IMG/VR virus record: IMGVR_UViG_2710264778_000001
Coordinates: 96,001 to 160,000 of that record
DNA from: a virus
Lineage: Duplodnaviria > Caudoviricetes
Strand: one strand, 5' to 3'
Length of the DNA stretch: 64,000 nt
The position numbers were made by a program, and so were the translations under genes. A model generated the notes under the pieces. That model was not told where the DNA came from and did not search any database. It worked only from the letters and a program-made list of their open reading frames with translations. Shown here piece after piece: positions 4,111 through 55,675 of this stretch; the first letter of the stretch is position 1; each line of letters starts with the position of its first letter.

Positions 4111-4871
4111 GATTAATAGTAAATGAAAAAATAATATGTGAAAAGGCTTTAGCTGATAAATACATAGAAGGAAAACCGATGAAGATAATTAGATTAATAA
4201 TTAAGAAATATTTAAATGAAAAACTTACAAAAGAACAAGTATTTGAAAAAGTAGATAACTTTATGAAAGAAATATATAAGGATAAATATAATAAATCATA
4301 TTGGAAGAAAGTAATCTCAGATTCAATAAATACAGTATCAAAATATAATAATTATAATCTAATTAATATTGAAAAAATAGATATATATAAAGAGGAATTA
4401 GATATAATTGAATCTTTAAATGATATTAGATTAGAAAAGTTAGCTTTTGTATTACTTATATATGCTAAAATAAATAAAATAATAAATCCAACGAGTGATG
4501 GAAGAATAAATATAAATTTAGCTTATATATTTAAAGAGAGTAAATTGGTTTCTGATAAAAAGTTATTACATAAATTAGTAGATATTCAATACATATTAAC
4601 TAGTAAAATTTGTGACTCAACAACAATGAAAATAAATTATATTAATGAAGAAGGAGAAGTTAGATTGACGGTATTCAATCTAAATGACTTAAATCCAATT
4701 ACATATTATTTAGAATATAAATTAAATGAAACATATAATAATTGTGAGATATGCGCAAGCAGATTTAAACAAAAATCTAAGAAACCACGAAAGTATTGTA
4801 ATAAATGTGCAAAAGAAATAGATAAAGAAAAAGCAAAGGAAAGAATGAAAAATATAAGGAATTTTCAATAA
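4104..4871 (+). CDS. Phage protein with C-terminal zinc finger, translationally coupled to the RNAP gene
   Basis: Overlaps the RNAP stop; GGAGG RBS; CEIC...CNKC near the C-terminus. Confidence 0.6.
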   Translation: MLGLIVNEKIICEKALADKYIEGKPMKIIRLIIKKYLNEKLTKEQVFEKVDNFMKEIYKDKYNKSYWKKVISDSINTVSKYNNYNLINIEKIDIYKEELDIIESLNDIRLEKLAFVLLIYAKINKIINPTSDGRININLAYIFKESKLVSDKKLLHKLVDIQYILTSKICDSTTMKINYINEEGEVRLTVFNLNDLNPITYYLEYKLNETYNNCEICASRFKQKSKKPRKYCNKCAKEIDKEKAKERMKNIRNFQ

Positions 4872-26938: not shown

Positions 26939-27874
26939 ATGGAACAAAACAAAGTTGTAAGAAACAATATTAATAAGAATGAAAGAATGACTAAAGGAAA
27001 TGTTTATATTATGGTTAATACAGATACTAGAAATATAAAAATAGGTAAAAGTGCAAATGTAGATGAAAGACTAAAGTCATTAAATGGAGCATATAAAATG
27101 CTTGGAGAAAAACCTAGAATTGAATTATTATATTCAGTAAGATGTGAGGATGATTTAAAACTAGAACGTCATTTACATAGACATTTCAAAGATTTTAATG
27201 TACAGAATGAATGGTTTAGCATAAATCCTAAAAATGTAATAGATTATATAGAAACATTAGATATGAATGATTTTTGCAAAAAAGAAGAGAAAAATTTTGA
27301 TTTTAGCAATGGAATAAAATATATTATAGAAGATATAAAATATGAAATATCTATTTTGGAATTCAAATCATATAAACAACAATTATATGTTACGCCTTAT
27401 TACATTATTGCTTTTTATGAAAAATATTTTAGAAAAAGCAATTTGCTATCAAATATATTAAGTTTAAAAAAATGTTTAGACAATATGAATTATTATAATA
27501 GAGATATTTTTTATATTATAAGAAATAATGAGTTTTATATATCTTGCTATTTTTGCGTTTTATATATGAAAATATTTATCAATAAAGAAATGGTTAAAGA
27601 ATCTTTTATAGAAAAAATATGTAGTGAAATTATTGAAGATTTCAAAGAAGAGATAATAAAAGTAAACTATTATAATGAAATAGATACTCTTATAGAAGTC
27701 AATCTAGATGGATATCCAATTGAAGAGTATAAAAGAGCAGAAACCATATTATTACAGTTATTAGGAGACTATTATACATTTCAAGAAGTCCCTATTGATA
27801 AATTTAAGAGTGCTGATCTAGAGAGTTTAGTATGTAACATTTGTGAAAATATAAAACTTTCATGCAAATTATAA
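26939..27874 (+). CDS. T5orf172/MUG113-like GIY-YIG domain protein
   Basis: GNVYIM..IKIGKS...ERL...ERHLHRHF...NEWF. Confidence 0.8.
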   Translation: MEQNKVVRNNINKNERMTKGNVYIMVNTDTRNIKIGKSANVDERLKSLNGAYKMLGEKPRIELLYSVRCEDDLKLERHLHRHFKDFNVQNEWFSINPKNVIDYIETLDMNDFCKKEEKNFDFSNGIKYIIEDIKYEISILEFKSYKQQLYVTPYYIIAFYEKYFRKSNLLSNILSLKKCLDNMNYYNRDIFYIIRNNEFYISCYFCVLYMKIFINKEMVKESFIEKICSEIIEDFKEEIIKVNYYNEIDTLIEVNLDGYPIEEYKRAETILLQLLGDYYTFQEVPIDKFKSADLESLVCNICENIKLSCKL

Positions 27875-28261
27875 ACAAAATATAAAATAATAACCATAGA
27901 ACGGATTGAATTTAATGACTAAAATATTTGAGACTAGAATTTTTCAATAAGGTTCTAGTCTTTAAAATTATAATCACCTTTTGTAAAAATTTAACTAACG
28001 ATTTAAATACATAATATTGTAAATAAGTGGTAACATATTTATAAGATAATACGATTAAAAAGTATTAACTGAATATTATATCCATTATGAATTGTATTTA
28101 TACATAATGAGATAAAAAATCGTTCGACAAAACTATTGCATATTATGGTAAAAGGTGGTATATTCATGAATATAAAGAGGTATAAAAAAAATATTATTAC
28201 AAGAAATATCAGAAAAGAAAAAACCATTACAGAACAAATCAATCAAGTTGGAGGTGTTAAT

Positions 28262-28417
28262 ATGAATGCTAGAATACAAGAATTACAAAAAAAGTTATCA
28301 TTAAATATGAATAAAGCAGTATTGTTAGCAGAAAAAAACACTATCAGAAATGAACAAGGATATGTAGTATTACGTAAAGATGATGAGTGGAGAGATGAGG
28401 ATGAGTGGGAAGAGTAA
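28262..28417 (+). CDS. Putative type II antitoxin (51 aa)
   Basis: GGAGG RBS; acidic Trp-containing tail; overlaps the toxin start. Confidence 0.6.
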   Translation: MNARIQELQKKLSLNMNKAVLLAEKNTIRNEQGYVVLRKDDEWRDEDEWEE

Positions 28418-28796
28418 AAAGAAAGATATACAACCGCAAGAAGTGTGGTATGTTAATTTTCCTTTTGAGGAGAATCCCAACATAAAGAAAAGAAGACCAG
28501 TTGTGGTTTTAGGAAAAACAGAAGACAAAGTAACTGTAGCAGGATTAGAAGTAGATGCTTATTTAAGTGTTAAGATTACAAGTCATACTGAACGAAAAGA
28601 AGATGAATATGATACAATAATAGTCAAATGGAAAGAAGCTAATTTAAAAAAGGAATCGGTGGCAAGAGTTTCAAAAACGATAATTTTACCTAAAAGTCAA
28701 TTTATTGATAAAGTTGGAATTGCAGATGATGAAGATTTTGAAAATATACTAACTAAATACATAGAATTAACTGAATCATTCGATGATAGAACTTAG
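28401..28796 (+). CDS. PemK/MazF-like toxin
   Basis: EVWYVNFPFEE...K.RPVVV...ITS...W..ANL...S. Confidence 0.8.
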   Translation: MSGKSKKKDIQPQEVWYVNFPFEENPNIKKRRPVVVLGKTEDKVTVAGLEVDAYLSVKITSHTERKEDEYDTIIVKWKEANLKKESVARVSKTIILPKSQFIDKVGIADDEDFENILTKYIELTESFDDRT

Positions 28797-28899
28797 TAAA
28801 AGTAATACAATCTTTGCTGAGTTCTTTTTATTATAAAAATATCTTGACCTTATCCGATTTTCGTATAATAATGTTATTATAGAGTTAATTTACTAGTTG

Positions 28900-28908
28900 T
28901 GGTATAAT
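28900..28908 (+). promoter_or_regulatory. Extended -10 promoter of the wall-binding moron
   Basis: TGGTATAAT. Confidence 0.5.
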
Positions 28909-28945
28909 ATTCTATAATTAGACATTGTTTAAAGGGGATGAGTTA

Positions 28946-29788
28946 ATGAAGAATATTTTTATAAGAAAATTAATGGCTTTGACTATTGCAACTACAACAG
29001 TTTTAGGATTTGGTTCTGTAACTGCACATGCTGAATGGAGACAAGATAATAATGGATGGTGGAATACTGAAGGAAATTCATATTCTACTGGTTGGAAAGA
29101 TATAAATTCAAAATGGTATTACTTTAATCCAAATGGATATATGAAAACAGGTTGGTTAAGTGATAATGGCAAATGGTATTATTTAAAAGATGATGGTTCA
29201 ATGGCGGTTAATGAGACTGTAAATGGTCAATATAAAGTAGATAATAATGGAGTATGGATACAAAATACCACTGTGAATTCTAACAATACAAGTACTGTAA
29301 ATAATTCAGTTTCAAGCACAAGTAATAGTAATAATATGACTAATTTGACTAATAATATTGATAATAGTACAAATACAAATAGTTCGACAAGTTTAAATAA
29401 CACAGGAAACATAACAAATAATGGAGCTATAAACAATGGACAAATAAATACAACAAACAATGTTGATATTAATGTTGATAACACAAGTAAGGCTAAAGAA
29501 GATTATTATAAAGAATTAAAAAAACAACAAAAGAAAAGTAATGAAACATTAAAATTATATTATGAAAATCAATTAGATAGTGCTAAAAGTGATTTAAAAC
29601 AAGCTCAAACAGATCTAGAAAGAATAAAGACTCAAAAAACTGTTCAGACACTTAAACAACAAGATGATGGTTCTTGGCAATATGTTTATGAAGTAGATCA
29701 AGAGAAAGTTAGATATCATGAAAAACAAGTAGATAGTTATCAAAAACTTGTTGATTATTATGAGAAATTAGTAAAACAATATTCTTAA
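28946..29788 (+). CDS. Secreted cell-wall-binding protein with C-terminal tape-measure-like segment (candidate superinfection exclusion protein)
   Basis: Signal peptide ending AHA; CW_binding_1-type repeats (GW..I..KWYYF..NGYM.TGW); Asn/Thr linker; 48-aa TMP-like tail. Confidence 0.75.
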   Translation: MKNIFIRKLMALTIATTTVLGFGSVTAHAEWRQDNNGWWNTEGNSYSTGWKDINSKWYYFNPNGYMKTGWLSDNGKWYYLKDDGSMAVNETVNGQYKVDNNGVWIQNTTVNSNNTSTVNNSVSSTSNSNNMTNLTNNIDNSTNTNSSTSLNNTGNITNNGAINNGQINTTNNVDINVDNTSKAKEDYYKELKKQQKKSNETLKLYYENQLDSAKSDLKQAQTDLERIKTQKTVQTLKQQDDGSWQYVYEVDQEKVRYHEKQVDSYQKLVDYYEKLVKQYS

Positions 29789-29796
29789 AATAAATA

Positions 29797-29840
29797 TATA
29801 AGAAAAAAACGAGTATAATTAACTACTCGTTTTTCTTATA
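29797..29840. terminator. Bidirectional intrinsic terminator
   Basis: AGAAAAAAACGAGTA...TACTCGTTTTTCT between convergent genes. Confidence 0.75.
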
Positions 29841-30635
29841 TTAGGGATTACATTTCATATTTATAATTTGATATTTATAAGGAGAATTTGTATCAACGAT
29901 TACAGGAATTTTAAAAGACCAGATTTCGCCACTTTTTAAACTTGTAATATTAGCAATAGGAGTATCTAAAATATCTCCATTATTATTGGTAATTTTAGCT
30001 TGTACTTCAACATAAGAACAATTATAACTATTATTATTTTTAATTTTCCCTGTGATATAATAACCATCATTACTTACATTGTGGTTCAATAACTCTAAGC
30101 CATTCATAGTAAAACTTTGTGAGTTAGATTTTGGTTGAGTATTAGTTGTAGTTTTGGTATTTGAAGTCTTTGCCCCAATAAAATTTAATAAATATATTTG
30201 GTTATAGTTAAGATTTTCAGTATCAAATTTTATTAAACTCTTATTAATAGTTGGTTTCATTCCATTAAATAGTTCAAAATATTTAGCAGGGGAATTCTTT
30301 GTGTCAGATGTTTTTTCTAAAACTATATTTAAAACTTTATTATAAAGTAATTGATTGTCATCTAATTTATAATTAGCATCTATATCATTATTACGTAGTA
30401 ATGTATTACATTCTTTAATGTTGTCATGGTTTAAATTATCAATAAATTCATCTACAATTTTTTTGTCTTTAGTCTTTTTTAATAATTCATCATTTTCAAC
30501 TTTTTGAAGTTGCTCTTTTTGAATATAATTTAAATTAGATTTAATGCCTAGTACAATTATTATTATAAATATTAAAGATAATATTAAAACTATAATTTTT
30601 TGTTTTGAAAGTAAATTTATTTTGAATTTTCTCAT
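29841..30635 (-). CDS. Membrane-anchored FxLYD-like domain protein
   Basis: N-terminal TM helix; C-terminal ITGKIKNN...YVEV...NGDILDT...L..GE.WSF; TGTTATAAT on the minus strand at 30674-30682. Confidence 0.7.
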   Translation of the reverse strand: MRKFKINLLSKQKIIVLILSLIFIIIIVLGIKSNLNYIQKEQLQKVENDELLKKTKDKKIVDEFIDNLNHDNIKECNTLLRNNDIDANYKLDDNQLLYNKVLNIVLEKTSDTKNSPAKYFELFNGMKPTINKSLIKFDTENLNYNQIYLLNFIGAKTSNTKTTTNTQPKSNSQSFTMNGLELLNHNVSNDGYYITGKIKNNNSYNCSYVEVQAKITNNNGDILDTPIANITSLKSGEIWSFKIPVIVDTNSPYKYQIINMKCNP

Positions 30636-30747: not shown

Positions 30748-31464
30748 CTAGTTTTTTCTCAATTCATATAATTTTAATAATTCATTTGATTCATTTAATA
30801 AATCATTTAAATCATCATTATTTATAATTAATGATCCAGAATTATCTATATATATTCTTTTCATATGTTGTAAGAAATCTACCAATTGTTTATTATACAT
30901 TTGTTTCATAACTATATAATATAAAGAATGAAATGCTAAAAGAAATCTAAATGTAAATGGTATATCATCATTTACAGCTTGTAGAGCATTAAGCTCCGAT
31001 TGTATTTTACTTTTTAAACTATTTAAATTAGCCTTTTTTAAAATATAGTTAACTATTACTTTTAAATTTTCGTTAAGATCATATTCTTTATCTATACGTT
31101 TCTGTATTTGATCTAATTCTACATCTAATTCTTTATTTTTAAGGTTTTTTTCGTTGTTTATAATGGTATAATTTCGATCTATACTTATATTCTTTATAGA
31201 TTCTAAAGTATCTTGGCTTAATAAAGTTTGTTTTATGTTAAAGTTATTATAATTAAAAAGAGTTAATTGTGGTTCAACTTCAAAAATGTCATTTGGAGTT
31301 ATATCTAATATATTGCATAATTTTTCAAGTATATCGTATTTAATAGATGTAGTCTCGCCTTTAACTAATTTACTTAGATTATTTTGAGCTACACCTATTT
31401 CTTTAGATAATGAATAAATTGATATGTTTCTATTATCTAATATTTCTTGTAACTTTACTTTCAT
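30748..31464 (-). CDS. Cro/CI-type (HTH_26-like) repressor
   Basis: KLQEILDNRNISIYSLSKEIGV....LSKL...T.SIK..ILEKLC..L..TP.D. Confidence 0.85.
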   Translation of the reverse strand: MKVKLQEILDNRNISIYSLSKEIGVAQNNLSKLVKGETTSIKYDILEKLCNILDITPNDIFEVEPQLTLFNYNNFNIKQTLLSQDTLESIKNISIDRNYTIINNEKNLKNKELDVELDQIQKRIDKEYDLNENLKVIVNYILKKANLNSLKSKIQSELNALQAVNDDIPFTFRFLLAFHSLYYIVMKQMYNKQLVDFLQHMKRIYIDNSGSLIINNDDLNDLLNESNELLKLYELRKN

Positions 31465-31489: not shown

Positions 31490-31570
31490 ATTATACTTCA
31501 ACATACTGTATGTAGCAATAAAAAATATTCAAAATATATGTTGACATACTGTATTTAATGGTATTATAAT
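31490..31570. promoter_or_regulatory. Divergent promoters with ACATACTGTAT operator pair
   Basis: Left promoter TTGCTA-N17-TATAAT on the minus strand; right promoter TTGACA-N18-TATAAT. Operators at 31501-31513 and 31544-31556. Confidence 0.65.
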
Positions 31571-31696: not shown

Positions 31697-32404
31697 ATGG
31701 AAAATGAATTAATGTTATTTAAAGGAAGAAAAGTTGAGGTTTTTGAGTGGAATGGGAAGATTTTATTTAACCCTAAAGATGTTGCAGAATGTTTAGAAAT
31801 TGCAGATGTAAATAGTAGTATTAGGAATTTTAAGGAAAAGCAAGTAGTTAAGTTAAAAAATTTAGATATGCATGGAATGCATATCTAAAAATTAAATAAT
31901 GCAGGTGAAAATTTTCTTACTGAATCAGGAGTGTACAAGCTAATTTTTAAATCTAAAAAAGAAGAAGCTGAAGAATTTCAAGATTGGGTAACAGATGAAG
32001 TATTACCTTCATTAAGAAAAACAGGAAAATATGAACTACATAACGATAATGAAGAAGAAAATACAAACAAATATTTGAGAATTGAACCAACTAAATTGGA
32101 ACAAAAAGCTATTGAACTATTTGAAGAACTAAATTCTAAAACAGGTGAATTAGGTGAATATTTTAGGCCTAAGCATAAAACTAAATTGGCTTTTAATAGA
32201 TTTATTAAAGATTGTCTTGGTGATAATGCTACAAAAGAGAACTGTAAAAAGGCAAAAGATATGTTAATTATGATATTAGGGAATGGAGAATATACAATAT
32301 ATGAAGATATTCCATTAGATAAAATCAGAAATACAAATACTATGACTGTTTTACATGATATCTGTAAAAATATAAATAATTCTATAGCTGGAGGTATTAG
32401 ATAA
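31697..32404 (+). pseudogene. BRO-N antirepressor with an in-frame TAA at 31886-31888
   Basis: FNPKDVAECL...HI*KLNNAGENFLTESGVYKLIFKS.K.EAE.FQDWVTDEVLPSLRKTG reads in one frame across the stop. Confidence 0.85.
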
Positions 32405-35105: not shown

Positions 35106-38100
35106 ATGGCAGAATATAAGAATAATATAAAAATTGGAATAGCTTTTGATAAACAAAAAGATATACAAGGGCAATTAGATTCTTTAATAAAAAGCTTGAA
35201 TAACACTAAAATTAATTTAGACATAAACTTAAATAACACTGATTTGGTTAAAAAATTAGAAAATATAACAAAAATGGCTGATAATTTTAAAAGCAGTTTT
35301 GGTGGAAACATATCTCTTGGCAATGTAGATCAAGTAATAAATAAGACTATATCAGCTATGGGAAGTCTTAATGGAGAACTATTAAAAACTAATATAAAAA
35401 CTTTTAACGACATTGTTACTAAAAGCATTTCTACTAATATTGGAGAAGTTACTAGGCAAACAGAAAAATTTATTAACGAAAGTGGGCAACTGCAAAAAAT
35501 TGGTGAAACAATTACAACAGTAACTGAAAATTCTGAAAGATTTAAACAATCAATGAATGATATTCAAAAAGCTATGTTGTCTTTAGAATCAATGAAACTT
35601 AATGGTTTAGTTGATACAAATTCTATTGAAAAATTGAAAACTGATTTAAATACTGTTTTTTCAGAATCTAATAAAGAAAATGGTATTAAATTTTCAGATA
35701 ATGAACTAAAGAATTATTTAAATCAAGTTAAAGCATTAGAAAATGAAGAAAAAAATTTAAAAGAAATACAAGATATAAATAATAGAGAATTAGAAGCTAT
35801 GTATAAGCTTCAACAAGATGATTTAAAACAATTACAACAACTAGAACAGCAAAGAGAAAAAGAATTACTACAAGAACAAATGTTGATAGAACGTCAAGCT
35901 GAAGCATATAAGCAAATTGATGTTATGAAAGCAAATGGGATTATAAGCAATTCAGATATTGCCAAGCTTGAATCAATGGTACAAAAAGCTAATTCATTAA
36001 AAGATATGAATAAAGCTTTGAGTGAAATTATGACAACATCAATGATGAAAGAATCATCTATAGTAACATTATCAAAACAATTAGATGAAGCTCAAGTAAA
36101 ATTAGATAAAATGAAATCCACTTTTGGTAATAAGTTACCAGATGGATTTATTCAATCAACTGAAAGCCAAATAAACAAGTTAAAAGAAGATCTAACTAAA
36201 GTTGATGGTATGAATTTTAATGGCATCAAAAACAGTTTAAATGATATTAATACTGGAATGAAAGTTACAAATAATGAAACTAAAGAATTAGTAAATTCTT
36301 TAAAAGAAACTAATAACAATAGTTTCTTTGGTAGTATGAGTAGTTTTCTTGGCAAAATTGGTGTGTTTTATGGAATACAACAAGTAACTCAAGAAATCTC
36401 TCAACAGTTAAAAAATGCGGCAAGTTATACTATTGATATGGATAAGTCTATGACCAATATGCAAATGATTACTGGAAAATCAAAATCAGATGTTGGAGAT
36501 ATAGTTAATAATTATAAACAATTAGGTGAACAATTACATACTACTAATTCTGAAATGATGAGGGGCATGGAAGAGGTAACAAGAGCAGGATTTGATGGAA
36601 AAGAAGGAGAATCATTAATGTCTGCTTCTATCATGGGTTCTAAGCTTTCTGGTCAAACTACAGAACAAGTTACTCAACAATTAATTGCAATTAAAAATGC
36701 GTTTAATATGACTGGTGAACAAATGCAAAATGTTGTAGATATGATGAGCAAGATGGATAATGTTTCAGCAACGTCGTTAGATTTTGACGACTTAGTGGTA
36801 TAATAGATAAACCACTAATAAAAAATTCTCTCTTATATACGGCGAAAATCCAGAGATGGACAACGCCTTCCAAGATAATTGATTAATTAATAATAAAATA
36901 TAATGTGTTATTTAAGATAAGAACAATATTCTTGTCTTTTTATTTTGTAGAAAATGGAGGTGTAATATTGAAGATAGGTAATATAAAAGTATATGGAATT
37001 ATTTATAAAATAACAAATAAAATAAATAACAACATTTACATTGGACAAACTACTAAGAAAAATGGTTTTAATAGTAGATATTGTTGTAAAGGAACTGAAA
37101 TAGAACGTGTTTATAAATATCATAAAAAGTTAAAAGAATCTAATAATAAATCTTTTAACTCTCATTTATATAACTCTATATTAAAATATGGGTTTGAATC
37201 TTTTGAAATAGTAAAAATATTTGATATTGCATTTAGTCAAGATGAATTAAATATAAAAGAAAAATGTTGGATAAATTATTATGATTCATATAAAAATGGA
37301 TATAATCAAACAATTGGTGGAGAAGGAACTTTTGGCCATAAAGCATTAAAAGGCAAAGAAAATCCAACTTCTAGAAGTGTTATTCAATTAGATTTAAGTG
37401 GAAACTATATAAAAACATGGGATTACATGACACAAGCTATCAATGAATTAAATGTAGATAAAGCAAGTATGATAAAGTCTTGTAAAAATAAACATTATTC
37501 AGCTAGTGGATTTTTATGGGTGTATGAAGATGAATATGATATCAATAAAACATATAAACATATTCCTAAAAGAAAAAATTCAAAAGAAGTTTATAAATTA
37601 GATGAAGACTACAATATTATTGAAAAATATATTAGTTCAAAAGAAGCTTCAAGAATATTAAAAATAAATCATGTATCCATTTCAAGAGTTTGTTCGGGAA
37701 TGAGAAAAACATATTTGGGATATATTTGGATGAATGTTGAAGATTATAATAAAAAATTTATAAAGACTTCCGAAATTAATTAACACACCATTTCGGATTA
37801 TTAATTAATCAATTATCGGGAACAACGACTGAGCGAGAGAACTACATTTATTATGTAGATGCAACAGTCTGAACACACGCTATAATCTAAAAATGAAACG
37901 TGTGAAAAATGGTCAAGTGTAAAGACACTTTTGGAAGAACCATTTTCGCTATATAATAAATAATTATATAGTCAGTAATCTATTTTAATAGATGAAAGTA
38001 ACAGAATGTAAAGAAATAGCTTCAGCAATACAAAGAACAGCTTTCTCAGCGCAAGAAGCAGGAACCCCACTTAGCAATCTTATTACATATATAACAACAG

Positions 38101-41100
38101 TTTCAGAAAAAACTAGAAAATCAGCAGAAACTATAGGTGAAAGTTTTAAAACAATTTACGCACGATATAGTAATATAAAATTGGGTAATCTTGATGAAGA
38201 TGGTAAAACAATTAACGACACCGAAACGGCCATGAACAGAATCGGGATAGCTATAAGAAATAACAAAGGACAGTTTAAAGAATTTGATACTGTATTACAA
38301 GAATTTATGCAAAAATTTAAAAGTGGACAGCTAAGTCAAGTTGACTATCTAGCAGGAATTCAAGCATTAGCCGGAACTAGGCAAAGAGAAACGTTGATGG
38401 CATTAATGGAAAATATGGACACATTAAATCAACATCAAAAAGAAGTAGCACAATCGGCTGGTTCTGCTAAAAAAATGATGGATGAAGCATATAATCAATC
38501 GTTAGATGCACGTATTCAGGATTTAAAAAGAGCATTTGAAGAATTATATGAAAAAATAACAAATTCAGAACAATTAAAATGGCTAGTTTCAGAATTTACA
38601 CAATTAATAACTGTATTATCAAATGTAGATGGAAAAACTATAGCTTTTACTGCCACTATTGGTGGATTAGTTTTAGTAATGTCAAAATTGTCAGCATTGA
38701 ATAAAACTTTACTTGCTGGTGAAGCAGTAACAGGATTAAGTAAATTTATTGGATTGGCAAGTGGAATGACTAAATTAGAAACAGGTGCTACAGGCGTTGC
38801 AACAGCATTTGGACTATTGAAAGGTGGAATAGTTAGTGCAACACAAGCATCTATTGCATTCATTAGTAGTTCTTTAGGTTTAGTTATTGCAGGAATTGCA
38901 GTTGCTATAGGTGTTGCCATTTCAGCATTTACAAGTTATAAAGAACATCAAGCACAATTAGAACAACAATCAAAGAACTTAAAAGATGCTATTGATGGAG
39001 TCAATGAAAGTCTTAAAAATGGAGATACAAAAGGCGCTAGCAAGCAATTGGATAAAGCTAAAGAAGAACAGGTACAATTACAAAAGCTTTATGAAACTAG
39101 AAAAAGATTAGAGGGAATGTCTGAAGATCAATTTTATGGTAAAATGGGTGGGGCAGATAAAGCACAATCAATTGCTTTAGTTCAACATCAAATCGATGAA
39201 TTAACAAATTCTATAAAGGAAAATGGATTAACGGTTAATGAAGAAACTGGAACTATTAAGGAATATGTTGAAGCACAAGAACAAGTCGCAAATGCTAAAA
39301 CAGTAGATACTATTAAGGAACAGACAAAAGCACAATTAGAAGATAGAATGAATTTAGAAGAAGCTCAGGGGGAATATAATAATTTTATAGGAACTGTTCA
39401 AGGGTTATATACAGAATATCAAACTCTATCAGATCAAGAGAGTTTAAGTGCTGATCAAAAGACACGTTTAAGTGAAGTGTGTTCAGAGCTACAATCTAAA
39501 TTTACAGATTTAAATGTTAGTGTTGATGAAAATGGTGTTGCACATATAAATAATACCCCACTTATAGAAGACAATATTTCTTATCTAACTAGCGAGGGAA
39601 TGACTATTGAGACTTTAACTAGTATACGTCTTAGTGATGCAAAAGCTTGTAGTGAATGGTCTATTGGTAATCAGCAAATGACTTATCAAGAAGTTTCTAA
39701 CAATATAGAAAATTATAAGGCTGAAATTGATGCTATTGGGAAGTTAATGGAAGCTAGAAGTCAAAGCGCTCAAAGCTCTACAGCTTCAGGAACAATAACT
39801 GATTCTGCAATTGATGCAACTTTACAAGTTACTAAATCTGGCTTGGAAGCTGATGCTAGTGAATTAGAAAGTGCTAAATCTAAAATAGATTCAATATATG
39901 GATCTATAAAAGCTCCTGTTAATAATGCACATACTGTTGGTGGTGGAGGAGACTATATGCCATCAGGAGAAAGTGGAGGAGGAAAAAAAGGTTCATCTGG
40001 ATCAGGTAAATCAGAAGAGGCAGAAGCTAAAAAAGCACAACAAGAAGCAATAAAAGCTGAAAAAGATGCCTTGAAAGAAATTACTGATGCATATGATAAA
40101 TCTAAGAATACAATATCAAATGACTTAAAAGAGATTGAATTAAATGAAAAAATGCTAGGTAAAGCTACAAATGATAATTTTCCTCAGAGAGTAGATTTAA
40201 CTAATAAGAAAATAAAAGAACAACAAAGTTTACTAGATTCCTCCACAAATCAGTTGATGGATTTAGAAACACAGTCTTATAATACAGAAGAAGGACAAAA
40301 GGCATTAGCTGATGCTATAGAGAAGGCTAATACTGAAATTATAAATCAAAAAATTGCTGTAGAAGAAGCTAAACAAGCATTACAAGACTTATTACAACAA
40401 CAAATGAAACAAGTAATTGAACAAGAAAAAAATGTTGCTGAAATTGAATTAGAAGGAAAACAAGAGTATGATACCAAAGCCTTAGAAGACTATACTAAAC
40501 AACAAGAAAATGCACATAATGCTAGAATACAATCATTAGATGATGAATTAGATGCTTTAGAAAAACAAAATGAAGAAGAAGAAAAATCTAATGAACTTCA
40601 AGAGAAAAGAAATGATTTAAAACAAAAAGAAATGGATTTGGAAAGACTCAAAGGACAGCAAACTATTCAAACACTTCAAAAACAGGCAGATGGAACATAT
40701 CAATTTGTTTATACTTATGACAAATTAGCAGTTGAAGATAAACAAAAGGAAGTTGATGAAGCTAAAAAGGAGTTAGAAGATACTAGACGAAAACAAGAGT
40801 ACGAAGCAGAAAAACAAGCCATTGAAGATCAAAAAAAGTCAGAAGAGGATTTATATAAGAAAAAAGAAGATTATTTAAAGAAATATGCTGATAGTCTTAA
40901 GGAACAACAAGACTTAGAAAAACAACGACTTGATCAATATTACTCAGATATGGATAAGTTATCTTTTAATAGATTGCAAGAATTGGAGCAACAATATGGT
41001 CAAAATTGGGATGAAATAGCTAAAACTATTCAATCAAAATTATCAGAAACTGAATCCTCGTTCGAACAATTAACTACTATAAAATTAAATTTTGGAACAA

Positions 41101-42035
41101 AGGCAGTTCAAGAGGCATTAAATAGTGGTGATATTACTACTTATTTAACAAATAAAAGAGACCAAATTGATAAATCAACTAAATTAGACTTACAAGGAAT
41201 TGATAGTTATATTAAATCAATTGATGATTCTGCACAAGATTTAAGTGAAACTTATGATAATATATTATCTATTAAAGATAATAACGAGATAACTGAATCT
41301 GACATAAAAACCAGACAAGTTCAGGCGAATAAGGTAGTAAATATAGATTTTGATGGATTACAAAAACAAATTAAAAATCTTCAAGATGCAAATGAGAAGT
41401 TAGAGATGGAATTAGATTCTCATTATAATAAACAATTATCAAGACAAAAAAGAGCACAGCAAGAGGAACTTGAAAGTTTACAAAAATTTTCTGAATCTTA
41501 TTTAACATTATCTAATAAATTCTTAGAGTTATTACAAGTTGTATATGATTATAGATTTAATAATATAACTACAAATGTTGCAGGAGCTGTTAATGAAATT
41601 GTTGCAGGATTAAATGTAATATCCGAAGCTTATGAATCATATGCAAAAGCATGGAATAAAATGCATCCAGATGATAAAATTCCTTCTAGTATTGATACTG
41701 CACAAGTACAATCAGATAATTCAACCTATCAAAAATCTGTAATTGATTATCAGAATAGCAAACTGTCATTGTATAATGCTGACGTTTTTGAACAGTATTA
41801 TAAACAAATTAAAAATGGAATTACTGATAATATACTAACACAACTTGGTAATTATTCATTGCCATCTGGAAATTCTATTAACACAAGTAATAATTCTGTT
41901 GTTAACAATAAGAATACTACTACGTCAAAAACTACACAAGTTACAATTAATCAACTTGATGTTAATACAAAAGATGCACAAAGCCTTCTTAATCAGTTAT
42001 TAACACTTGTAGAAAATAAAACAAAATTAAGCTAG
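35106..42035 (+). CDS. Tape measure protein; exons 35106-36778 and 38009-42035 (~1899 aa spliced)
   Basis: TP901-like TMP core (spliced DNVSATS-F-KEIASAIQR, ETIGESFKTIYAR, AGTRQ), hydrophobic segments and long coiled coils. Confidence 0.9.
36779..38008 (+). mobile_element. Group I intron (1230 nt) with a homing endonuclease ORF
   Basis: P1 GTCGTT|A/TGACGAC with a U-G pair at the splice site; P3 TTCTCTC/GAGAGAA; R-like CAACGACT at 37823; S-like ACAGTCT at 37864; terminal G at 38008. The stem GATAATTGATTAATTAA/TTAATTAATCAATTATC encloses the ORF. Confidence 0.9.
36968..37783 (+). CDS. Intron-encoded GIY-YIG endonuclease with NUMOD1-like repeats
   Basis: GIIYKITNKINNNIYIGQT; GGAGG RBS before TTG 36968. 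Confidence 0.9.
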   Translation: MKIGNIKVYGIIYKITNKINNNIYIGQTTKKNGFNSRYCCKGTEIERVYKYHKKLKESNNKSFNSHLYNSILKYGFESFEIVKIFDIAFSQDELNIKEKCWINYYDSYKNGYNQTIGGEGTFGHKALKGKENPTSRSVIQLDLSGNYIKTWDYMTQAINELNVDKASMIKSCKNKHYSASGFLWVYEDEYDINKTYKHIPKRKNSKEVYKLDEDYNIIEKYISSKEASRILKINHVSISRVCSGMRKTYLGYIWMNVEDYNKKFIKTSEIN

Positions 42036-49795: not shown

Positions 49796-52633
49796 ATGAC
49801 ATTATCCTTAAATAAGATAAATAAAAAAAATGGTGAACTTTTTACTGAAAATGATGTAAATAAAATAGATATAAATATGCAGATGATTCAAGACATGGTT
49901 AACACTTTACCAACATCAGCAGTAAAAGAAGTGATATCTAGTGAAATTAATGGGAATATAGTTGTAGATGGTGTTGAAACACAAGTTTATGTTCATCCTA
50001 GTGGAACCAATCCGCATGGTACAACTAAAACTGATGTTGGATTAGGTAATGTGGATAATACAAGTGATTTATCTAAACCAATTTCAACATCAACACAAAA
50101 TGCTTTAGATGAAAAAGTAGATAAAATTGTAGGTAAACAATTATCAACTGAGGATTATACAACTATTGAAAAGAATAAACTAGCTAACTTATTTAATTAT
50201 GATCATACAAATGTCGATAATCATATGGCTAACACAATAATACATGTTACTCAAGCTGACAAAGATTTATATTCTGATAAATATACAAAAAATGAAGTTG
50301 ACAATAAAATAAGTGCAGTAGTAACCAGTCTAGATTACAAGGAGCATGTGGCGACATTTGATGATTTAAATACTATCTATACAAACGCTCAAGAAGGTTG
50401 GACAGTAAGTGTAGACGATGATAATATTACTTATAAATATAGTGACGGGACTTGGATTCCTATTAGTGCAAATTCTATTCCTTTAGCTTCATCTAGCGTT
50501 GATGGCAAAATGTCAAAACAAGATAAAATAAAAGTTGATTCTATTACAGGAACAAACACAGGAGACGAAACACAAAATACAATAAAGACAAAGCTTGGAA
50601 GTGCTTCAAATTCTAGTGATGGTTATTTAACATCTACTGATTGGAATACTTTTAATAATAAAGCTAAAGTTAATGATATTTTATCAACTTCAATAAATGA
50701 CACATATTCAATAGATAAAATAGTATCATTATTAGCTAATAAACAAAATAAAATATATTTACAAAATACTCAACCGACTGATTTAGTTGATAAATTATTA
50801 TGGATACAAACAGGAATTACTCCATTATTGTTTTGGGAATATGATTCATCTACTACAAGTTTTAAACAAATTGGTTCTTCTGGTGGAGGTATAAGTATTG
50901 ATGACTGGATAAGTGGACAAAATTATAACCTAAAAGATTTTGTGATCAATAACTTAAATCTTTTTAGATGTAAAGTAGCAAATTCAGATACGAATTTTGA
51001 TTCTAGTAAATGGGATGAAATAGGAGGCGGATCTAGTTCAGGTGCAAGTGGAGTTGGACAAAGCACTGGTGGAATTGGTTCAGAAATTTTTAATGACTAT
51101 GTAAATAATACGATAAGTGGACAATATTCTCATGCAGAAGGTACACATAATATAATTAATGGTGATGTATCACATGTGGAAGGGAAAAATAATGTAATAA
51201 ACGCACCGAATTCTCATATATCAGGAACTTATAATTTAATTACCCCTGATATTAGTTCTCCAATAGCAGTAGTTGACACTCCATCTGCTACAGCAACAAG
51301 TATTTTTATTGTCAATACTGTTAGTGGTTTTACAGTTGGACAACAGGTTTGGACTTTTTCTTTAGCAGGAAATGGTCATAACAAGGCATCTATAACAGCA
51401 ATTGATACTACTACTAAAAAAATAACCTTAGATAGTTCCTTAGTATATTTAAAATATATAATTGGAATAACAAACAATAATGATGCAATGATAAATACGA
51501 TAGATGGTGGACAAAATTTACTTATTGGTAAATATTCAAAAATTTCAGGGTATCAAAATTATGGTAAAGCATTATACACTGAAATTGGAGGATACAATAA
51601 TACAGTTACTGCTGATTATGTGCATGTAAAAGGTTTTAATAATAAAGCACTAACACAATTTTCACATATAGAAGGGTATGGAAATTTGATACAATCTGGT
51701 TCAAATTCTCATCTTGAAGGAAATAATAATATTGCTAATGGAGAGTCTATTCACATTGAGGGTACAAGTAATCAGGTGACAGGAGCATATTCAAATGCAG
51801 AAGGGGCATACAATTTGATAAACTCATCTTATTCATCAGCATATGGTTACTATAACATAACCAATAATCTAGGATCGACTGTAATGGGACAGTATTGTAA
51901 AACTCCAGTTCAATATAACAATGGGACATCTTTTAGTTCATCTGCCGATGCCCTAACTATTGGCTGTGGAACATCTGATACGTCAAGAGCTAATGCTTTT
52001 AGAGCTACATTTGCTGGTAAATTATACTGTTTGCAAGCATATTCTTCAACAGGCGCGGATTATGCTGAATGGTTTGAATGGTTAGATGATAACGAATTAA
52101 GTGAAGATAGAGTTGGTAAGTTTGTAACATTAATTGGAGATAGAATCAGAATAGCAAATTCAACTGATGATTATATATTGGGAATAGTTTCAGGAAATCC
52201 TTCTGTTATTGGAGATGCGCAAGATGATAGTTGGGTAGATATGTATGTAAGAGATGAGTTTGGACGATTACAATATGAAGACGTTGAAGTTGAAGCAGTA
52301 ACTAAAGTCATCCCAGAAATTTCAGAAATAATTGATGGTGAAAAAGTAATAATAAAACCTGAAGAAAAAATAGTTATTAAGCCAGCAGGAATAGAGCATA
52401 GAATAAAGCTAAATCCAGAATATGATTCATCAAAAGAATATATTCCTAGAAGCCAACGAAAAGAATGGAGTTGTGTAGGAATGATGGGAAAATTAATTGT
52501 TTATGATGATGGCACTTGTGAGGTTAATGGTTATTGTAAATCTGGTGATAATGGAATTGCAACAAAATCGGAGAGTGGATATAGGGTTATGAAAAGAGTA
52601 TCTAATAATATAGTTCAAGTATTGGTTAAATAA
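49796..52633 (+). CDS. Tail spike with YadA-like repeats and a C-terminal Peptidase_G2-like intramolecular chaperone
   Basis: NPHG.TK.DVGLGNVDNTSD; SHAEG..N repeats; GADYAEWFEW...YIPRSQRKEWS.VGMMGKL.V.DDGTC. Confidence 0.85.
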   Translation: MTLSLNKINKKNGELFTENDVNKIDINMQMIQDMVNTLPTSAVKEVISSEINGNIVVDGVETQVYVHPSGTNPHGTTKTDVGLGNVDNTSDLSKPISTSTQNALDEKVDKIVGKQLSTEDYTTIEKNKLANLFNYDHTNVDNHMANTIIHVTQADKDLYSDKYTKNEVDNKISAVVTSLDYKEHVATFDDLNTIYTNAQEGWTVSVDDDNITYKYSDGTWIPISANSIPLASSSVDGKMSKQDKIKVDSITGTNTGDETQNTIKTKLGSASNSSDGYLTSTDWNTFNNKAKVNDILSTSINDTYSIDKIVSLLANKQNKIYLQNTQPTDLVDKLLWIQTGITPLLFWEYDSSTTSFKQIGSSGGGISIDDWISGQNYNLKDFVINNLNLFRCKVANSDTNFDSSKWDEIGGGSSSGASGVGQSTGGIGSEIFNDYVNNTISGQYSHAEGTHNIINGDVSHVEGKNNVINAPNSHISGTYNLITPDISSPIAVVDTPSATATSIFIVNTVSGFTVGQQVWTFSLAGNGHNKASITAIDTTTKKITLDSSLVYLKYIIGITNNNDAMINTIDGGQNLLIGKYSKISGYQNYGKALYTEIGGYNNTVTADYVHVKGFNNKALTQFSHIEGYGNLIQSGSNSHLEGNNNIANGESIHIEGTSNQVTGAYSNAEGAYNLINSSYSSAYGYYNITNNLGSTVMGQYCKTPVQYNNGTSFSSSADALTIGCGTSDTSRANAFRATFAGKLYCLQAYSSTGADYAEWFEWLDDNELSEDRVGKFVTLIGDRIRIANSTDDYILGIVSGNPSVIGDAQDDSWVDMYVRDEFGRLQYEDVEVEAVTKVIPEISEIIDGEKVIIKPEEKIVIKPAGIEHRIKLNPEYDSSKEYIPRSQRKEWSCVGMMGKLIVYDDGTCEVNGYCKSGDNGIATKSESGYRVMKRVSNNIVQVLVK
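50705..50755 (+). repeat. 51-bp exact direct repeat, copy 1
   Basis: Identical to 59321-59371; encodes YSIDKIVSLLANKQNKI. Confidence 0.9.
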
Positions 52634-52653: not shown

Positions 52654-53688
52654 ATGGGATATATTAAAGGGATTGATATATCAAATAATGATGGACAAGT
52701 AGATTTTAGTAAAATTGCTAATGATGGTGTTCAATATGTGTACTTGAAGGCCACAGAAGGCAAATCATTTAAAGATAGTTATATGGATGGCTTTTATAAT
52801 GGAGCTAAAGCACAAGGTTTAAAGCTAGGTTCATATCATTTTTTGGTTGGTACTAGCAGTCCCGAAGAACAAGCACAGAATTTTTATATTAAAATTAAAG
52901 ACTATAGTTGGGATCTAGTACCTATGATGGATATTGAAACGAATTTTGATGGATTATCTGATTATGTTGTAAGATTTATAAATGCATTTAAACAATTAAG
53001 TCCATTACAATTAGGTATATACAGTTATACAGGTTTTATTGATTATATCTCAGATATTAGTGAGACAATTAAAGGTATGCCTTTCTGGGAAGCTAATTAT
53101 AATAATAATCCTTGGTCATTAAAAGATAATTTCTTTACAAATAGAATAGGTCATCAATATACTGAAACAGGTGTTATTAGTGGAGTTAATTGTAATTGTG
53201 ATGTTAATTCTTTTACTGAAGGAGTTCTATTAAATAATACTTCAAAGTCTGGTCAATGGATAACAAATGATAAAGGACAATGGTGGTATAAACATGACGA
53301 TGGAAGTTATACAACTAATGGATGGGAATATATTAACGGTAAATGGTATATGTTCGATTCACAAGGTTGGATGCTTTATGATTGGAAACAGGATGGTAAC
53401 GGATATTGGTATTATCTTGGGGATTCTCAAGACGGTTCAATGAAATCAGGATGGTTATTAAAAAATTCTAAATGGTTCTATCTTGCTGATAATGGTCAAA
53501 TGTTAGTTGGTTGGCAAAAGATAAAAAATAATTGGTATTATTTTTATGAAGATGGAACTATGGCAGTTGGTTGGTTTAAAGATACTAAAGGAAATAGTTA
53601 TCTTACATATTCTACTGGTGAATTAATAACTAATATAGACATCTATAGATATCATTTTGATAAAGATGGACATCCAAATAAATTATAA
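52654..53688 (+). CDS. Endolysin: GH25 muramidase plus cell-wall-binding repeats
   Basis: GIDIS, YLKATEG, GSYHF, DIE, HQYTETG; GW....KWY repeats. Confidence 0.92.
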   Translation: MGYIKGIDISNNDGQVDFSKIANDGVQYVYLKATEGKSFKDSYMDGFYNGAKAQGLKLGSYHFLVGTSSPEEQAQNFYIKIKDYSWDLVPMMDIETNFDGLSDYVVRFINAFKQLSPLQLGIYSYTGFIDYISDISETIKGMPFWEANYNNNPWSLKDNFFTNRIGHQYTETGVISGVNCNCDVNSFTEGVLLNNTSKSGQWITNDKGQWWYKHDDGSYTTNGWEYINGKWYMFDSQGWMLYDWKQDGNGYWYYLGDSQDGSMKSGWLLKNSKWFYLADNGQMLVGWQKIKNNWYYFYEDGTMAVGWFKDTKGNSYLTYSTGELITNIDIYRYHFDKDGHPNKL

Positions 53689-54557: not shown

Positions 54558-54832
54558 GAATAAAATATAATTAAGAATAGAACTTAAAATCTGAAATTTA
54601 TTGGGATTTTTAATTTTAAGAATGAGACTATGACTGGGTTCTAGGAATTCGGTTATGGTCTTTTTATTATGTTTATTTTTAATTAAGTTCATCCCTTTGG
54701 GTGGATTTATAAAAAATAAAATAACAGATAGATAGGAAGTCATGAGCCTATTGATAAGAAAGGAAATCCTTACCCTTTCTTCTGTTGTTAAATAAAGTAA
54801 GGAAATATATTAGTGTAAGGAGTAATATAAAA

Positions 54833-55675
54833 ATGAACAAAGAAGAATTAAAACAATTTAAAAATGTTAAAAACTCAGATGGAGGATATGTTTATGTATT
54901 ATTAGCTAATGATAATACAGTAAAAATTGGTATAACAGTACATCCAATTACAAGAGTTAGACAAATTGAAAATGCATCAGGAAAATCAATAAATGATTAT
55001 TGCATAAGTAATCCATGTTCAAATTATATGGAAATAGAAAAGGATATGCATAAAAAGTTCAAAAAATATAGATTAGAAGGAGAATGGTTTAATTGTTCCT
55101 TTCAAAAGGCAGAAGAACAACTTAAAAATTATAAAACAATAAAAATAAAAAACAAATCGGCATTAGATAGATGTGAGGAAGAATTTAAAGCAATTAGTTT
55201 TGTAAAGTCATATTTGGAAGAATTTAAATATAAAGAATATAATGAACTTTCATTTAAATATGATTTATCAAAATGGGATAATAATGTAGATGATGTTAAT
55301 AAAATTAAAAATATGATAGAAGAAAATATAAATTATAATATAAAAGAAACTGGAAATGATGCTGAAGACTTTAATCAATATTTATATAAATATAGAGAAA
55401 ATATAAAAAACAATATAAAGGTTAGGGAGTCCATTCAAGAGTATTGTATGGATTATATTAATGATTTACAAGAAGATTCTTTTGCAAAACAAATTTTAAT
55501 TGAAAATAAGGATTATGAATTATTTGTTAGAATATTAGGAATACAAGAAATAATAAGAAATTATATTGTGGAACAAATTGTAAATAAATTAATGAATAAT
55601 ATAATATTAGAATTTCCAGAAGAATATGAACAATTAATAAAGAAGTATCGCACCAGGATAGAAGGTGCTAAATAA
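54833..55675 (+). CDS. T5orf172-like GIY-YIG domain protein
   Basis: GYVYVL...VKIGIT...R.RQI...EK.MH..F...R.EGEWF. Confidence 0.8.
   Translation: MNKEELKQFKNVKNSDGGYVYVLLANDNTVKIGITVHPITRVRQIENASGKSINDYCISNPCSNYMEIEKDMHKKFKKYRLEGEWFNCSFQKAEEQLKNYKTIKIKNKSALDRCEEEFKAISFVKSYLEEFKYKEYNELSFKYDLSKWDNNVDDVNKIKNMIEENINYNIKETGNDAEDFNQYLYKYRENIKNNIKVRESIQEYCMDYINDLQEDSFAKQILIENKDYELFVRILGIQEIIRNYIVEQIVNKLMNNIILEFPEEYEQLIKKYRTRIEGAK

What the first reader, a model, noticed from the sequence alone, without database searches (positions are those of the whole stretch)
28946..29788. Secreted wall-anchored protein displaying a copy of the phage's own tape-measure segment: candidate TMP-decoy superinfection exclusion
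Seen: DLKQAQTDLERIKTQKTVQTLKQQDDGSWQYVYEVDQEKVRYHEKQVD (29591-29734) aligns without gaps to TMP DLKQKEMDLERLKGQQTIQTLQKQADGTYQFVYTYDKLAVEDKQKEVD (40614-40757). By hand, 25 of 48 residues are identical, many others are conservative, and the match centres on a beta-hairpin-like insert within a coiled coil. The gene has a signal peptide, wall-binding repeats, a long Asn/Thr spacer and its own promoter and terminator. Known: TMPs are ejected to form the DNA conduit, and exclusion proteins such as Ltp and HK97 gp15 act through the TMP. Inference: the lysogen displays the TMP motif to occupy its host partner or to disrupt assembly of incoming TMP. I know of no description of exclusion by TMP mimicry.
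Basis: partly seen in the sequence, partly recalled or inferred. Interest (0 to 1): 0.92.

Follow-up and report, generated by a model that had tools for sequence, protein, structure and literature searches.

The report
Secreted protein sharing a tape-measure domain
A 229-kb clostridial phage encodes an exported, cell-wall-binding protein whose tail end is a small folded domain also built into the phage's tail tape-measure protein; this may let infected cells block entry of rival phages, but that is untested.

Summary
The gene at 28946-29788 encodes a 280-aa protein. It has a Sec-type signal peptide, choline-binding/cell-wall-binding repeats, an Asn/Thr/Ser-rich spacer and a C-terminal segment. 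That segment matches the phage's tape measure protein (TMP) without gaps: 28/60 identical, BLASTP E 4e-14, z about 11 against shuffles.

It is not a recent copy of this phage's own TMP. The segment is an unannotated domain of about 80 aa (helix, beta-hairpin, helix; AlphaFold2 pLDDT 96). It occurs once in about 49 TMP clusters, at a roughly fixed distance from their C-terminus. It also ends at least 12 secreted protein clusters with different anchors (cell-wall-binding repeats, Cu_amine_oxidN1, fn3).

The secreted copies form their own clade. This protein matches foreign TMPs as well as its own (18-26 of 48).

All five related phage contigs searched carry both forms. A distant phage places a differently anchored version directly after its TMP gene.

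Superinfection exclusion by competition with the incoming TMP domain is my leading reading (about 0.4). It is inferred, not shown. A shared envelope-active or oligomerisation module is the main rival.

The scan noted the same theme earlier on other DNA (e1-5411229).

The parts
28844..28918 (+). Promoter-like sites upstream of the gene, including an extended -10-like element at 28900-28908
   Evidence: The consensus scan finds sites at 28844-28872 and 28889-28918 (10/12 each). The sequence was read. This is weak evidence: such sites are not enriched over shuffles.
28931..28937 (+). Shine-Dalgarno-like purine run 8 nt before the ATG
   Evidence: Read directly.
28946..29788 (+). CDS of the 280-aa secreted wall-binding protein (P0001), stop included
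   Evidence: Full-length homologues at 47-58% identity are aligned.
28946..29032 (+). Sec-type signal peptide (about residues 1-29), no lipobox cysteine
   Evidence: Translation. The cleavage-site motif is conserved in six homologues. This is a heuristic reading; no predictor was run.
29033..29260 (+). Choline-binding / cell-wall-binding repeats (about residues 30-105)
   Evidence: Pfam PF19127, PF01473 and PF19085. The repeats are 44-45% identical to those of the phage's GH25 endolysin.
29261..29485 (+). Asn/Thr/Ser-rich low-complexity spacer (about residues 106-180)
   Evidence: Translation. The spacer is present in all homologues with cell-wall-binding repeats.
29531..29785 (+). C-terminal helix / beta-hairpin / helix domain (residues 196-280); the core shared with the TMP is at 29567-29746
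   Evidence: BLASTP; profile search; AlphaFold2 pLDDT 96.
29803..29836 (.). Bidirectional intrinsic-terminator hairpin between the convergent genes
   Evidence: 4 terminator-like sites found in the region scanned against 0.4 expected.
35106..36803 (+). TMP, N-terminal part (565 aa)
   Evidence: Matches phrog_4211 positions 212-727.
36905..37783 (+). Homing-endonuclease ORF inside the insertion that splits the TMP gene
   Evidence: Pfam NUMOD1; phrog_314 and phrog_5123 homing endonuclease.
37992..42035 (+). TMP, C-terminal part (1347 aa, P0002)
   Evidence: Matches phrog_4211 positions 729-1080, E 6e-35.
40560..40796 (+). The same domain embedded in the TMP (P0002 residues 857-935), 412 residues from the C-terminus
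   Evidence: The fold is the same in a 199-aa TMP context, pLDDT 90.
52654..53688 (+). Phage endolysin (GH25 plus cell-wall-binding repeats), the nearest relative of the target's wall-binding part
   Evidence: Pfam PF01183 and PF19127; BLASTP 44-45% identity over the repeats.

Best explanation
Shown.
- The gene encodes a protein with a Sec-type signal peptide, cell-wall-binding repeats and a flexible Asn/Thr/Ser spacer of about 75 residues.
- The spacer carries a C-terminal domain of about 80 residues: two antiparallel helices capped by a beta-hairpin.
- This domain belongs to a previously unannotated family. The family's other members sit as a single copy about 160-560 residues (median 323) before the C-terminus of long tape measure proteins, including this phage's own.
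- The secreted form is an old, separate branch of the family. It has been joined to several different surface anchors and is kept near the TMP gene in this phage lineage.

Inferred.
- Export and wall binding themselves are read from sequence features, not measured. The signal peptide would take the protein out of the cytoplasm, so it cannot be a virion part.
- It would therefore present the TMP-type domain in the wall compartment that an incoming TMP must cross.
- Most likely it interferes with entry of phages whose TMP carries this domain. That would be superinfection exclusion, or protection of an infected or lysogenic cell and its progeny.
- It would do so by competing for whatever the TMP domain binds. 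That partner could be other copies of the same domain (hairpin-to-hairpin or helix-bundle association, as a dominant-negative subunit) or a wall or membrane ligand.
For: Homology is significant and family-wide. The two-sequence profile gave 94 hits in 1.8 billion representatives. With the 34-sequence profile the true members score 39-101 bits.

All long members tested are TMPs.

In secreted members the domain is always C-terminal, behind a signal peptide and one of at least three anchor types: cell-wall-binding repeats, Cu_amine_oxidN1 or fn3.

Co-occurrence: all five related phage contigs searched hold both a short copy and either a TMP copy or a second short copy. A distant phage puts a Cu_amine_oxidN1-anchored version directly after its split TMP, which also carries the domain.

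Within the accessory island, the short gene is the only member conserved among relatives. It stays 2-12 kb from the TMP domain even when it moves.

Two tandem paralogues in one relative are about 93% identical over the first 160 residues but about 76% identical in the domain. This fits diversification of a specificity-bearing end.

One relative's TMP core has 70-89% DNA identity and 22-24-nt exact runs with short genes. Codon identity is 27/34 at shared residues, against about 50-60% elsewhere. This suggests exchange between the two forms.

Another member lies beside an integrase and an HTH regulator in a small integrated element.

The phage DNA is held by cultured-isolate assemblies from three studies, and the genome has two tyrosine recombinases. 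A carried or lysogenic state is therefore plausible.

Precedent from the literature: Ltp targets the TMP, and wall-associated CwpV blocks DNA injection (PMC4737114).
Against: There is no functional test of any kind.

The protein is no closer to its own TMP than to foreign TMPs. Cognate ranks are mixed and confounded by phage relatedness.

Secreted copies form their own clade rather than tracking their TMPs.

One member (P0053) is chromosomal, with no phage gene within 10 kb. The domain therefore also serves a cellular role.

Two prophages in 400 Clostridia genomes carry the TMP domain with no secreted copy anywhere in the genome.

The fold is a generic helical hairpin with only weak prefoldin-like matches. 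It could simply be an oligomerisation unit.
Confidence: 0.4

Rival explanations
1. Shared envelope-active module without antagonism. The domain has a wall- or membrane-directed activity of its own, such as binding or locally opening the envelope. The TMP uses it during penetration. The secreted proteins use it for a separate purpose, for example wall remodelling, help with lysis or release, or a host function. The mycobacteriophage TMP motifs shared with secreted host wall enzymes are the model.
For: Precedent: TMP-embedded motifs related to secreted host proteins act on peptidoglycan and aid infection (PMC1796659). A chromosomal member lies in a non-phage context. The secreted copies are an old separate clade. 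The wall-binding repeats are shared with the phage endolysin.
Against: No hydrolase or other enzyme family matches the domain. About 80 residues of helix-hairpin-helix is an unlikely catalyst. This reading does not explain why the gene stays linked to the TMP gene across lineages with different anchors.
Confidence: 0.25
2. Generic oligomerisation unit. The helix-hairpin-helix is a self-associating module (prefoldin-beta-like topology). It bundles TMP chains inside the tail and, independently, multimerises surface proteins. Their real function, such as adhesion, aggregation or lysogenic conversion, then lies in the N-terminal anchor domains.
For: The best Foldseek matches are prefoldin beta subunits, whose hairpins build the oligomer core (E 0.03-0.3, TM about 0.7). 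Other matches are helical hairpins of multimeric adaptors (Z about 10). The varied N-terminal domains fit a reusable C-terminal module.
Against: The matches are weak and typical for any helical hairpin (note). The domain is rare: 2 of 400 Clostridia genomes, both in TMPs. It is almost confined to TMPs and mobile-element secreted proteins, which is unexpected for a general-purpose module. Divergence between tandem paralogues is concentrated in this domain.
Confidence: 0.2
3. Non-functional remnant. The gene is a chimera made by chance from endolysin-repeat and TMP sequence and has no selected role.
For: Both halves have their nearest relatives inside the same genome.
Against: Intact full-length homologues at 47-58% identity exist in several phage lineages, with conserved signal peptide, cleavage motif, spacer and domain. 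DNA identity to the TMP segment is only about 52%. The gene has its own ribosome-binding site and terminator.
Confidence: 0.04
4. Chance similarity between two coiled coils.
For: Both regions are rich in Lys, Glu and Gln. A second, weak high-scoring pair (E 0.024) is of that kind.
Against: The hairpin part alone gives z 10.7. The alignment is gapless across 34 sequences. Profile E-values reach 1e-30.
Confidence: 0.01

Closest known systems
Ltp of Streptococcus thermophilus phage TP-J34 (and lactococcal Sie2009-type proteins)
   Same: It is a phage-encoded, surface-exposed protein. In Ltp's case it blocks DNA entry, and escape mutations map to the TMP (as summarised in PMC4737114; PMC3952083 listed).
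   Different: Ltp is a lipoprotein with no reported homology to the TMP. The protein here has no lipobox cysteine, binds the wall through choline-binding-type repeats, and carries a domain homologous to part of the TMP. Exclusion is not shown here.
CwpV of Clostridium difficile
   Same: It is a wall-associated protein of a clostridial host whose C-terminal part blocks phage DNA injection without blocking adsorption (PMC4737114).
   Different: CwpV is host-encoded, phase-variable, anchored by another wall-binding domain type and carries long repeats. No TMP-like domain is reported for it.
Host-related motifs embedded in mycobacteriophage tape measure proteins (Rpf-like motif 1, motifs 2 and 3)
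   Same: They are small motifs inside TMPs with homologues among separate non-virion proteins (PMC1796659).
   Different: Those motifs are peptidoglycan hydrolases related to host chromosomal proteins and help the phage infect. Here the domain has no enzyme signature. The free-standing homologue is encoded by the phage itself, next to the TMP gene, with a signal peptide.
Prefoldin beta subunit fold
   Same: The topology is helix / beta-hairpin / helix with antiparallel coiled-coil arms (Foldseek E 0.03-0.3, TM 0.7).
   Different: Sequence identity is 10-14%, rmsd is about 10 Å, and there is no Pfam prefoldin match. It is probably only a shared simple topology.

Membership tests
Choline-binding / cell-wall-binding repeat proteins (Pfam PF01473, PF19127, PF19085) | Tandem repeats of about 20 residues that score above the Pfam gathering thresholds | tested here: met
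   PF19127 56.2 bits (cut-off 27), PF01473 46.2 (20.5), PF19085 31.3 (27).
Sec-exported proteins (signal peptidase I type) | N-terminal basic region, hydrophobic core and small-x-small cleavage motif | tested here: met
   Seen in the translation and conserved in six homologues. This is a heuristic reading only; no SignalP-type tool was available.
Ltp-type exclusion lipoproteins | Lipobox with an invariant cysteine at the signal-peptide cleavage site | tested here: not met
   There is no cysteine in or after the signal peptide.
Ltp-type exclusion lipoproteins | Blocks DNA injection, with escape mutations in the TMP | not testable with these tools
   Needs infection assays.
Tail tape measure proteins (phrog_4211 and related) | Long protein matching TMP profiles over most of its length, encoded in the tail module | tested here: not met
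   P0001 hits only endolysin-type PHROGs, through its repeats. Only the domain of about 80 aa is shared with TMPs.
New helix/hairpin/helix domain family defined here (profile A4) | Gapless match to the 81-position profile, including the conserved Gly of the hairpin turn and the flanking Leu and Asp positions | tested here: met
   P0001 scores 101.5 bits and its own TMP 100.4 bits. The nearly invariant columns are listed.
CwpV-like wall proteins | CWB2-type anchor plus C-terminal antiphage repeats | tested here: not met
   Pfam shows only choline-binding-type repeats and no CWB2 domain or long repeats.
Prefoldin beta | Sequence or structure match strong enough to infer homology | tested here: inconclusive
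   Foldseek E 0.03, 14% identity, rmsd 10 Å. There is no Pfam match.
Peptidoglycan-hydrolase motifs of TMPs (mycobacteriophage type) | Match to a hydrolase family, or muralytic activity | tested here: not met
   No enzyme family matches in Pfam or by PDB sequence search. Activity itself is not testable here.

The most novel reading that the evidence does not exclude
Superinfection exclusion by structural mimicry. The wall-tethered domain co-assembles with the homologous domain of an incoming, partly unfolded TMP, or caps its hairpin. This would stop the refolding or bundling needed to build the DNA conduit, much as helix-mimic peptides block the hairpin refolding of viral fusion proteins. Tandem diverged copies and patches of gene conversion with the TMP would then be traces of an arms race over domain specificity.
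Probability: 0.25. Interest if true: 0.85.

Novelty: new variant of a known kind. Interest (0 to 1): 0.6.

Why it matters
How tape measure proteins cross the thick Gram-positive wall and open a channel is largely unknown. So is how exclusion proteins stop them.

This work defines a compact, confidently modelled domain. It marks a fixed position in many long TMPs and also exists as a free, surface-displayed form encoded by the same phages. That gives a concrete handle: one small domain to delete, swap, purify and use as bait.

If the secreted form is a decoy, it would be the first exclusion mechanism based on homology to the virion part it targets. It would also explain the recurrent linkage of such genes to the TMP gene.

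If it is not a decoy, the domain still identifies a wall-compartment function shared by phage tails and clostridial surface proteins.

Tried and rejected
- Word-index homologue searches with the C-terminal 81 residues found only the query itself in the near-length search and nothing in the longer-length search. The two forms share no exact 5-residue word.
- Megablast of the 8-kb island against deposited phages gave no match.
- tblastn of the whole protein against deposited phages hit only the wall-binding repeats of endolysins.
- Multi-stretch hits of the first profile (Bacteroidota-like repeat adhesins, a eukaryote-like coiled coil) fell to 15 bits or less with the better profile. They were rejected as unrelated.
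- Scans of representative genomes with two sub-alignments returned nothing in one case and a single prophage TMP in the other.
- The PDB sequence search gave no match. Foldseek against PDB and BFVD, VIA-align and the Atlas structure search gave only generic helical hairpins.
- No RNA holder is listed for the stretch. Three RNA-seq runs of the same species label gave only partial, 90-95%-alike reads on the repeat-coding part, which fit other repeat genes. They say nothing about expression.
It was redone from files.

Full report
**Setting.** The window is bases 96001-160000 of a 229,129-bp virus record with about 26% G+C, rated complete by CheckV. It carries head, tail, lysis and fibre genes. 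The stretch is held almost entirely (0.91-1.00 of sampled words) by assemblies of cultured isolates of one coded species, from three studies. One of them, laid on the window, gives contigs with no differences. The genome also has two tyrosine recombinases. A carried (lysogenic or plasmid-like) state is therefore plausible, although not proven.

**The gene.** ORF 28946-29788 has a good ribosome-binding site and is followed by a bidirectional terminator hairpin. Promoter-like sites lie upstream, but they are no more frequent than in shuffled sequence. The 280-aa product (P0001) has four parts:
- a typical Sec signal peptide without a lipobox cysteine;
- three to four choline-binding-type wall-binding repeats (Pfam E 3e-15 to 2e-7);
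- an Asn/Thr/Ser-rich spacer of about 75 residues;
- a helical C-terminal part.

The repeats are 44-45% identical to those of the phage's own GH25 endolysin at 52654-53688.

**The similarity.**
- P0001 residues 208-267 align without gaps to residues 867-926 of the TMP ORF 37992-42035 (28/60 identical, E 4e-14).
- Against composition-preserving shuffles the score lies 11.7 standard deviations out. The hairpin part alone lies 10.7 out. This is not coiled-coil noise.
- At the DNA level the two segments are only about 52% identical over 261 nt and about 60% over the 180-nt core. The copy is not recent.
- The TMP gene is split. ORF 35106-36803 matches TMP profile positions 212-727 and ORF 37992-42035 matches positions 729-1080. 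A homing-endonuclease ORF lies between them.

**A domain family, not a private copy.**
- An exhaustive profile search over 1.8 billion representatives gave 94 hits. With a 34-sequence profile the true members score 39-101 bits, and unrelated repeat proteins fall to 15 bits or less.
- About 49 clusters are long proteins. All six tested are TMPs by PHROG.
- Each TMP has one copy, 163-560 residues (median 323) from the C-terminus. Total length varies from 1169 to 2991 residues.
- At least 12 clusters are short proteins with signal peptides in which the domain is always the C-terminal end.
- Their anchors are cell-wall-binding repeats (six clusters), Cu_amine_oxidN1 domains (four), fn3 (one) or unknown (one).
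- Pfam has no model for the domain, and the PDB holds no sequence relative.
- One deposited phage, Clostridium phage D-1873, has the domain in its large TMP-like gene.
- In 400 sampled Clostridia genomes only two matches were found, both in prophage TMP-sized ORFs.

**Structure.**
- AlphaFold2 with the family alignment gives helix 2-34, strands 36-43 and 49-55, and helix 57-84, with mean pLDDT 96.
- The same elements appear in a 199-residue TMP context at pLDDT 90.
- The model is an antiparallel helical hairpin capped by a beta-hairpin.
- Foldseek's best matches are prefoldin beta subunits, weakly (E 0.03). VIA-align finds only generic helical hairpins at Z about 10, which its own note says is common for such shapes.
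- The fold suggests a self-associating or partner-binding unit rather than an enzyme. That is inference.

**Linkage to the TMP.**
- Five related IMG/VR contigs all hold matches. Four hold a short copy plus a TMP copy. The fifth holds two short copies and breaks off before its TMP.
- In two relatives the short gene sits where it does here, upstream of the TMP. In a third it lies downstream, after the TMP and two tail genes.
- The other genes of the accessory island (a MazF-like toxin, T5orf172 proteins and others) are mostly not conserved.
- A distant phage has a Cu_amine_oxidN1-anchored member directly after its endonuclease-split TMP, and that TMP also carries the domain.
- Another member lies next to an integrase and an HTH regulator in a small integrated element.
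- One member is chromosomal, with no phage gene within 10 kb.

**Does the short copy track its own TMP? Mostly not.**
- P0001's core identity is 25/48 to its own TMP and 18-26/48 to 18 foreign TMPs.
- Over five cognate pairs the own TMP ranks about 2.5, 7, 1, 9 and 25 of 49. This is better than random, but it is confounded by shared ancestry.
- In a FastTree of 76 domain sequences, the 15 signal-peptide proteins fall in one clade with five truncated short forms and one TMP (SH-like support 0.885). They are apart from the TMPs of their own phages. The tree rests on only 81 columns.

Two observations hint at interplay:
- One relative's TMP core shares 70-89% DNA identity, 22-24-nt exact runs and 27/34 identical codons with short genes. 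Other combinations show about 50-60% codon identity. This points to gene conversion between the two forms.
- Two tandem short paralogues in another relative are about 93% identical over the first 160 residues but about 76% in the domain.

**Reading.**
- Export rules out a role inside the virion or in cytoplasmic tail assembly.
- What is conserved across different anchors is the TMP-type domain, displayed on a long spacer in the wall compartment.
- The gene is kept by the phage lineage close to the TMP gene.
- Known biology offers two frames. The first is surface proteins that block injection via the TMP or at the wall, such as Ltp and CwpV (PMC4737114). The second is TMP-embedded motifs shared with secreted wall-active proteins (PMC1796659).
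- I rank exclusion by competition with the incoming TMP domain first, at about 0.4. A shared envelope-active module comes next (0.25), then a generic oligomerisation unit (0.2).
- None of these is tested.

**Earlier scan notes.** The same theme was reported on another genome (e1-5411229), with a claim of change in step with the TMP. My data support co-occurrence but only weakly support co-variation. A further note (e1-489645) describes an envelope protein copying a TMP segment in a P1-like element. I did not check it.

Noticed in passing
window 35106-42035: The TMP gene is interrupted. Two ORFs match consecutive parts of one TMP profile (positions 212-727 and 729-1080), and a NUMOD1/GIY-YIG-type homing-endonuclease ORF (36905-37783) lies between them. 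Homologous endonuclease ORFs sit at the same place in two relatives, and a distant phage (L033) has a GIY-YIG gene splitting its TMP as well.
   Followed up: partly
window 28136-28796: A MazF/PemK-like toxin gene (28380-28796, Pfam E 1e-9, phrog_1936) overlaps the end of a small upstream ORF (28136-28417) that could be its antitoxin. The pair lies directly upstream of the target gene.
   Followed up: no
window 26939-27874 and 54785-55675: Two paralogous T5orf172/MUG113-domain proteins lie inside the structural region.
   Followed up: no
window 30748-31464 (-) and 31931-32404 (+): A Cro/CI-type HTH repressor-like gene lies divergent from a Bro-N/anti-repressor-like gene, in the middle of the tail module. 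A perfect -35/-10 promoter match lies at 31541-31570.
   Followed up: no
window 29841-30635 (-): The convergent neighbour encodes a 264-aa protein with an N-terminal membrane-spanning stretch and a C-terminal part matching phrog_14275 (unknown function). It is another envelope protein sharing the target's terminator.
   Followed up: no
L014:9179-9913 and L014:11066-11821: A relative carries two tandem copies of the secreted protein. Divergence between them is concentrated in the C-terminal domain.
   Followed up: partly
L029 (relative's TMP) against L024/L025 (short genes): A patch of 70-89% DNA identity and 22-24-nt exact runs links one relative's TMP domain core to short-gene domains. This suggests gene conversion.
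   Followed up: partly
L040 (Clostridium phage D-1873, ACSJ01000012.1) 4295-4567: The TMP-type domain is present in the large 'conserved hypothetical phage-related protein' CLG_B2203 of this deposited clostridial phage. A putative transglycosylase gene follows it.
   Followed up: no
window 49796-52633: A 945-aa fibre-like protein ends in a Peptidase_G2 intramolecular-chaperone autoproteolytic domain (Pfam E 1e-35).
   Followed up: no
window 29116-29196: RNA-seq reads of the same species label match only this short repeat-coding stretch, at 90-95% identity, and run on into unlike sequence. They appear to come from other wall-binding-repeat genes of the host.
   Followed up: no
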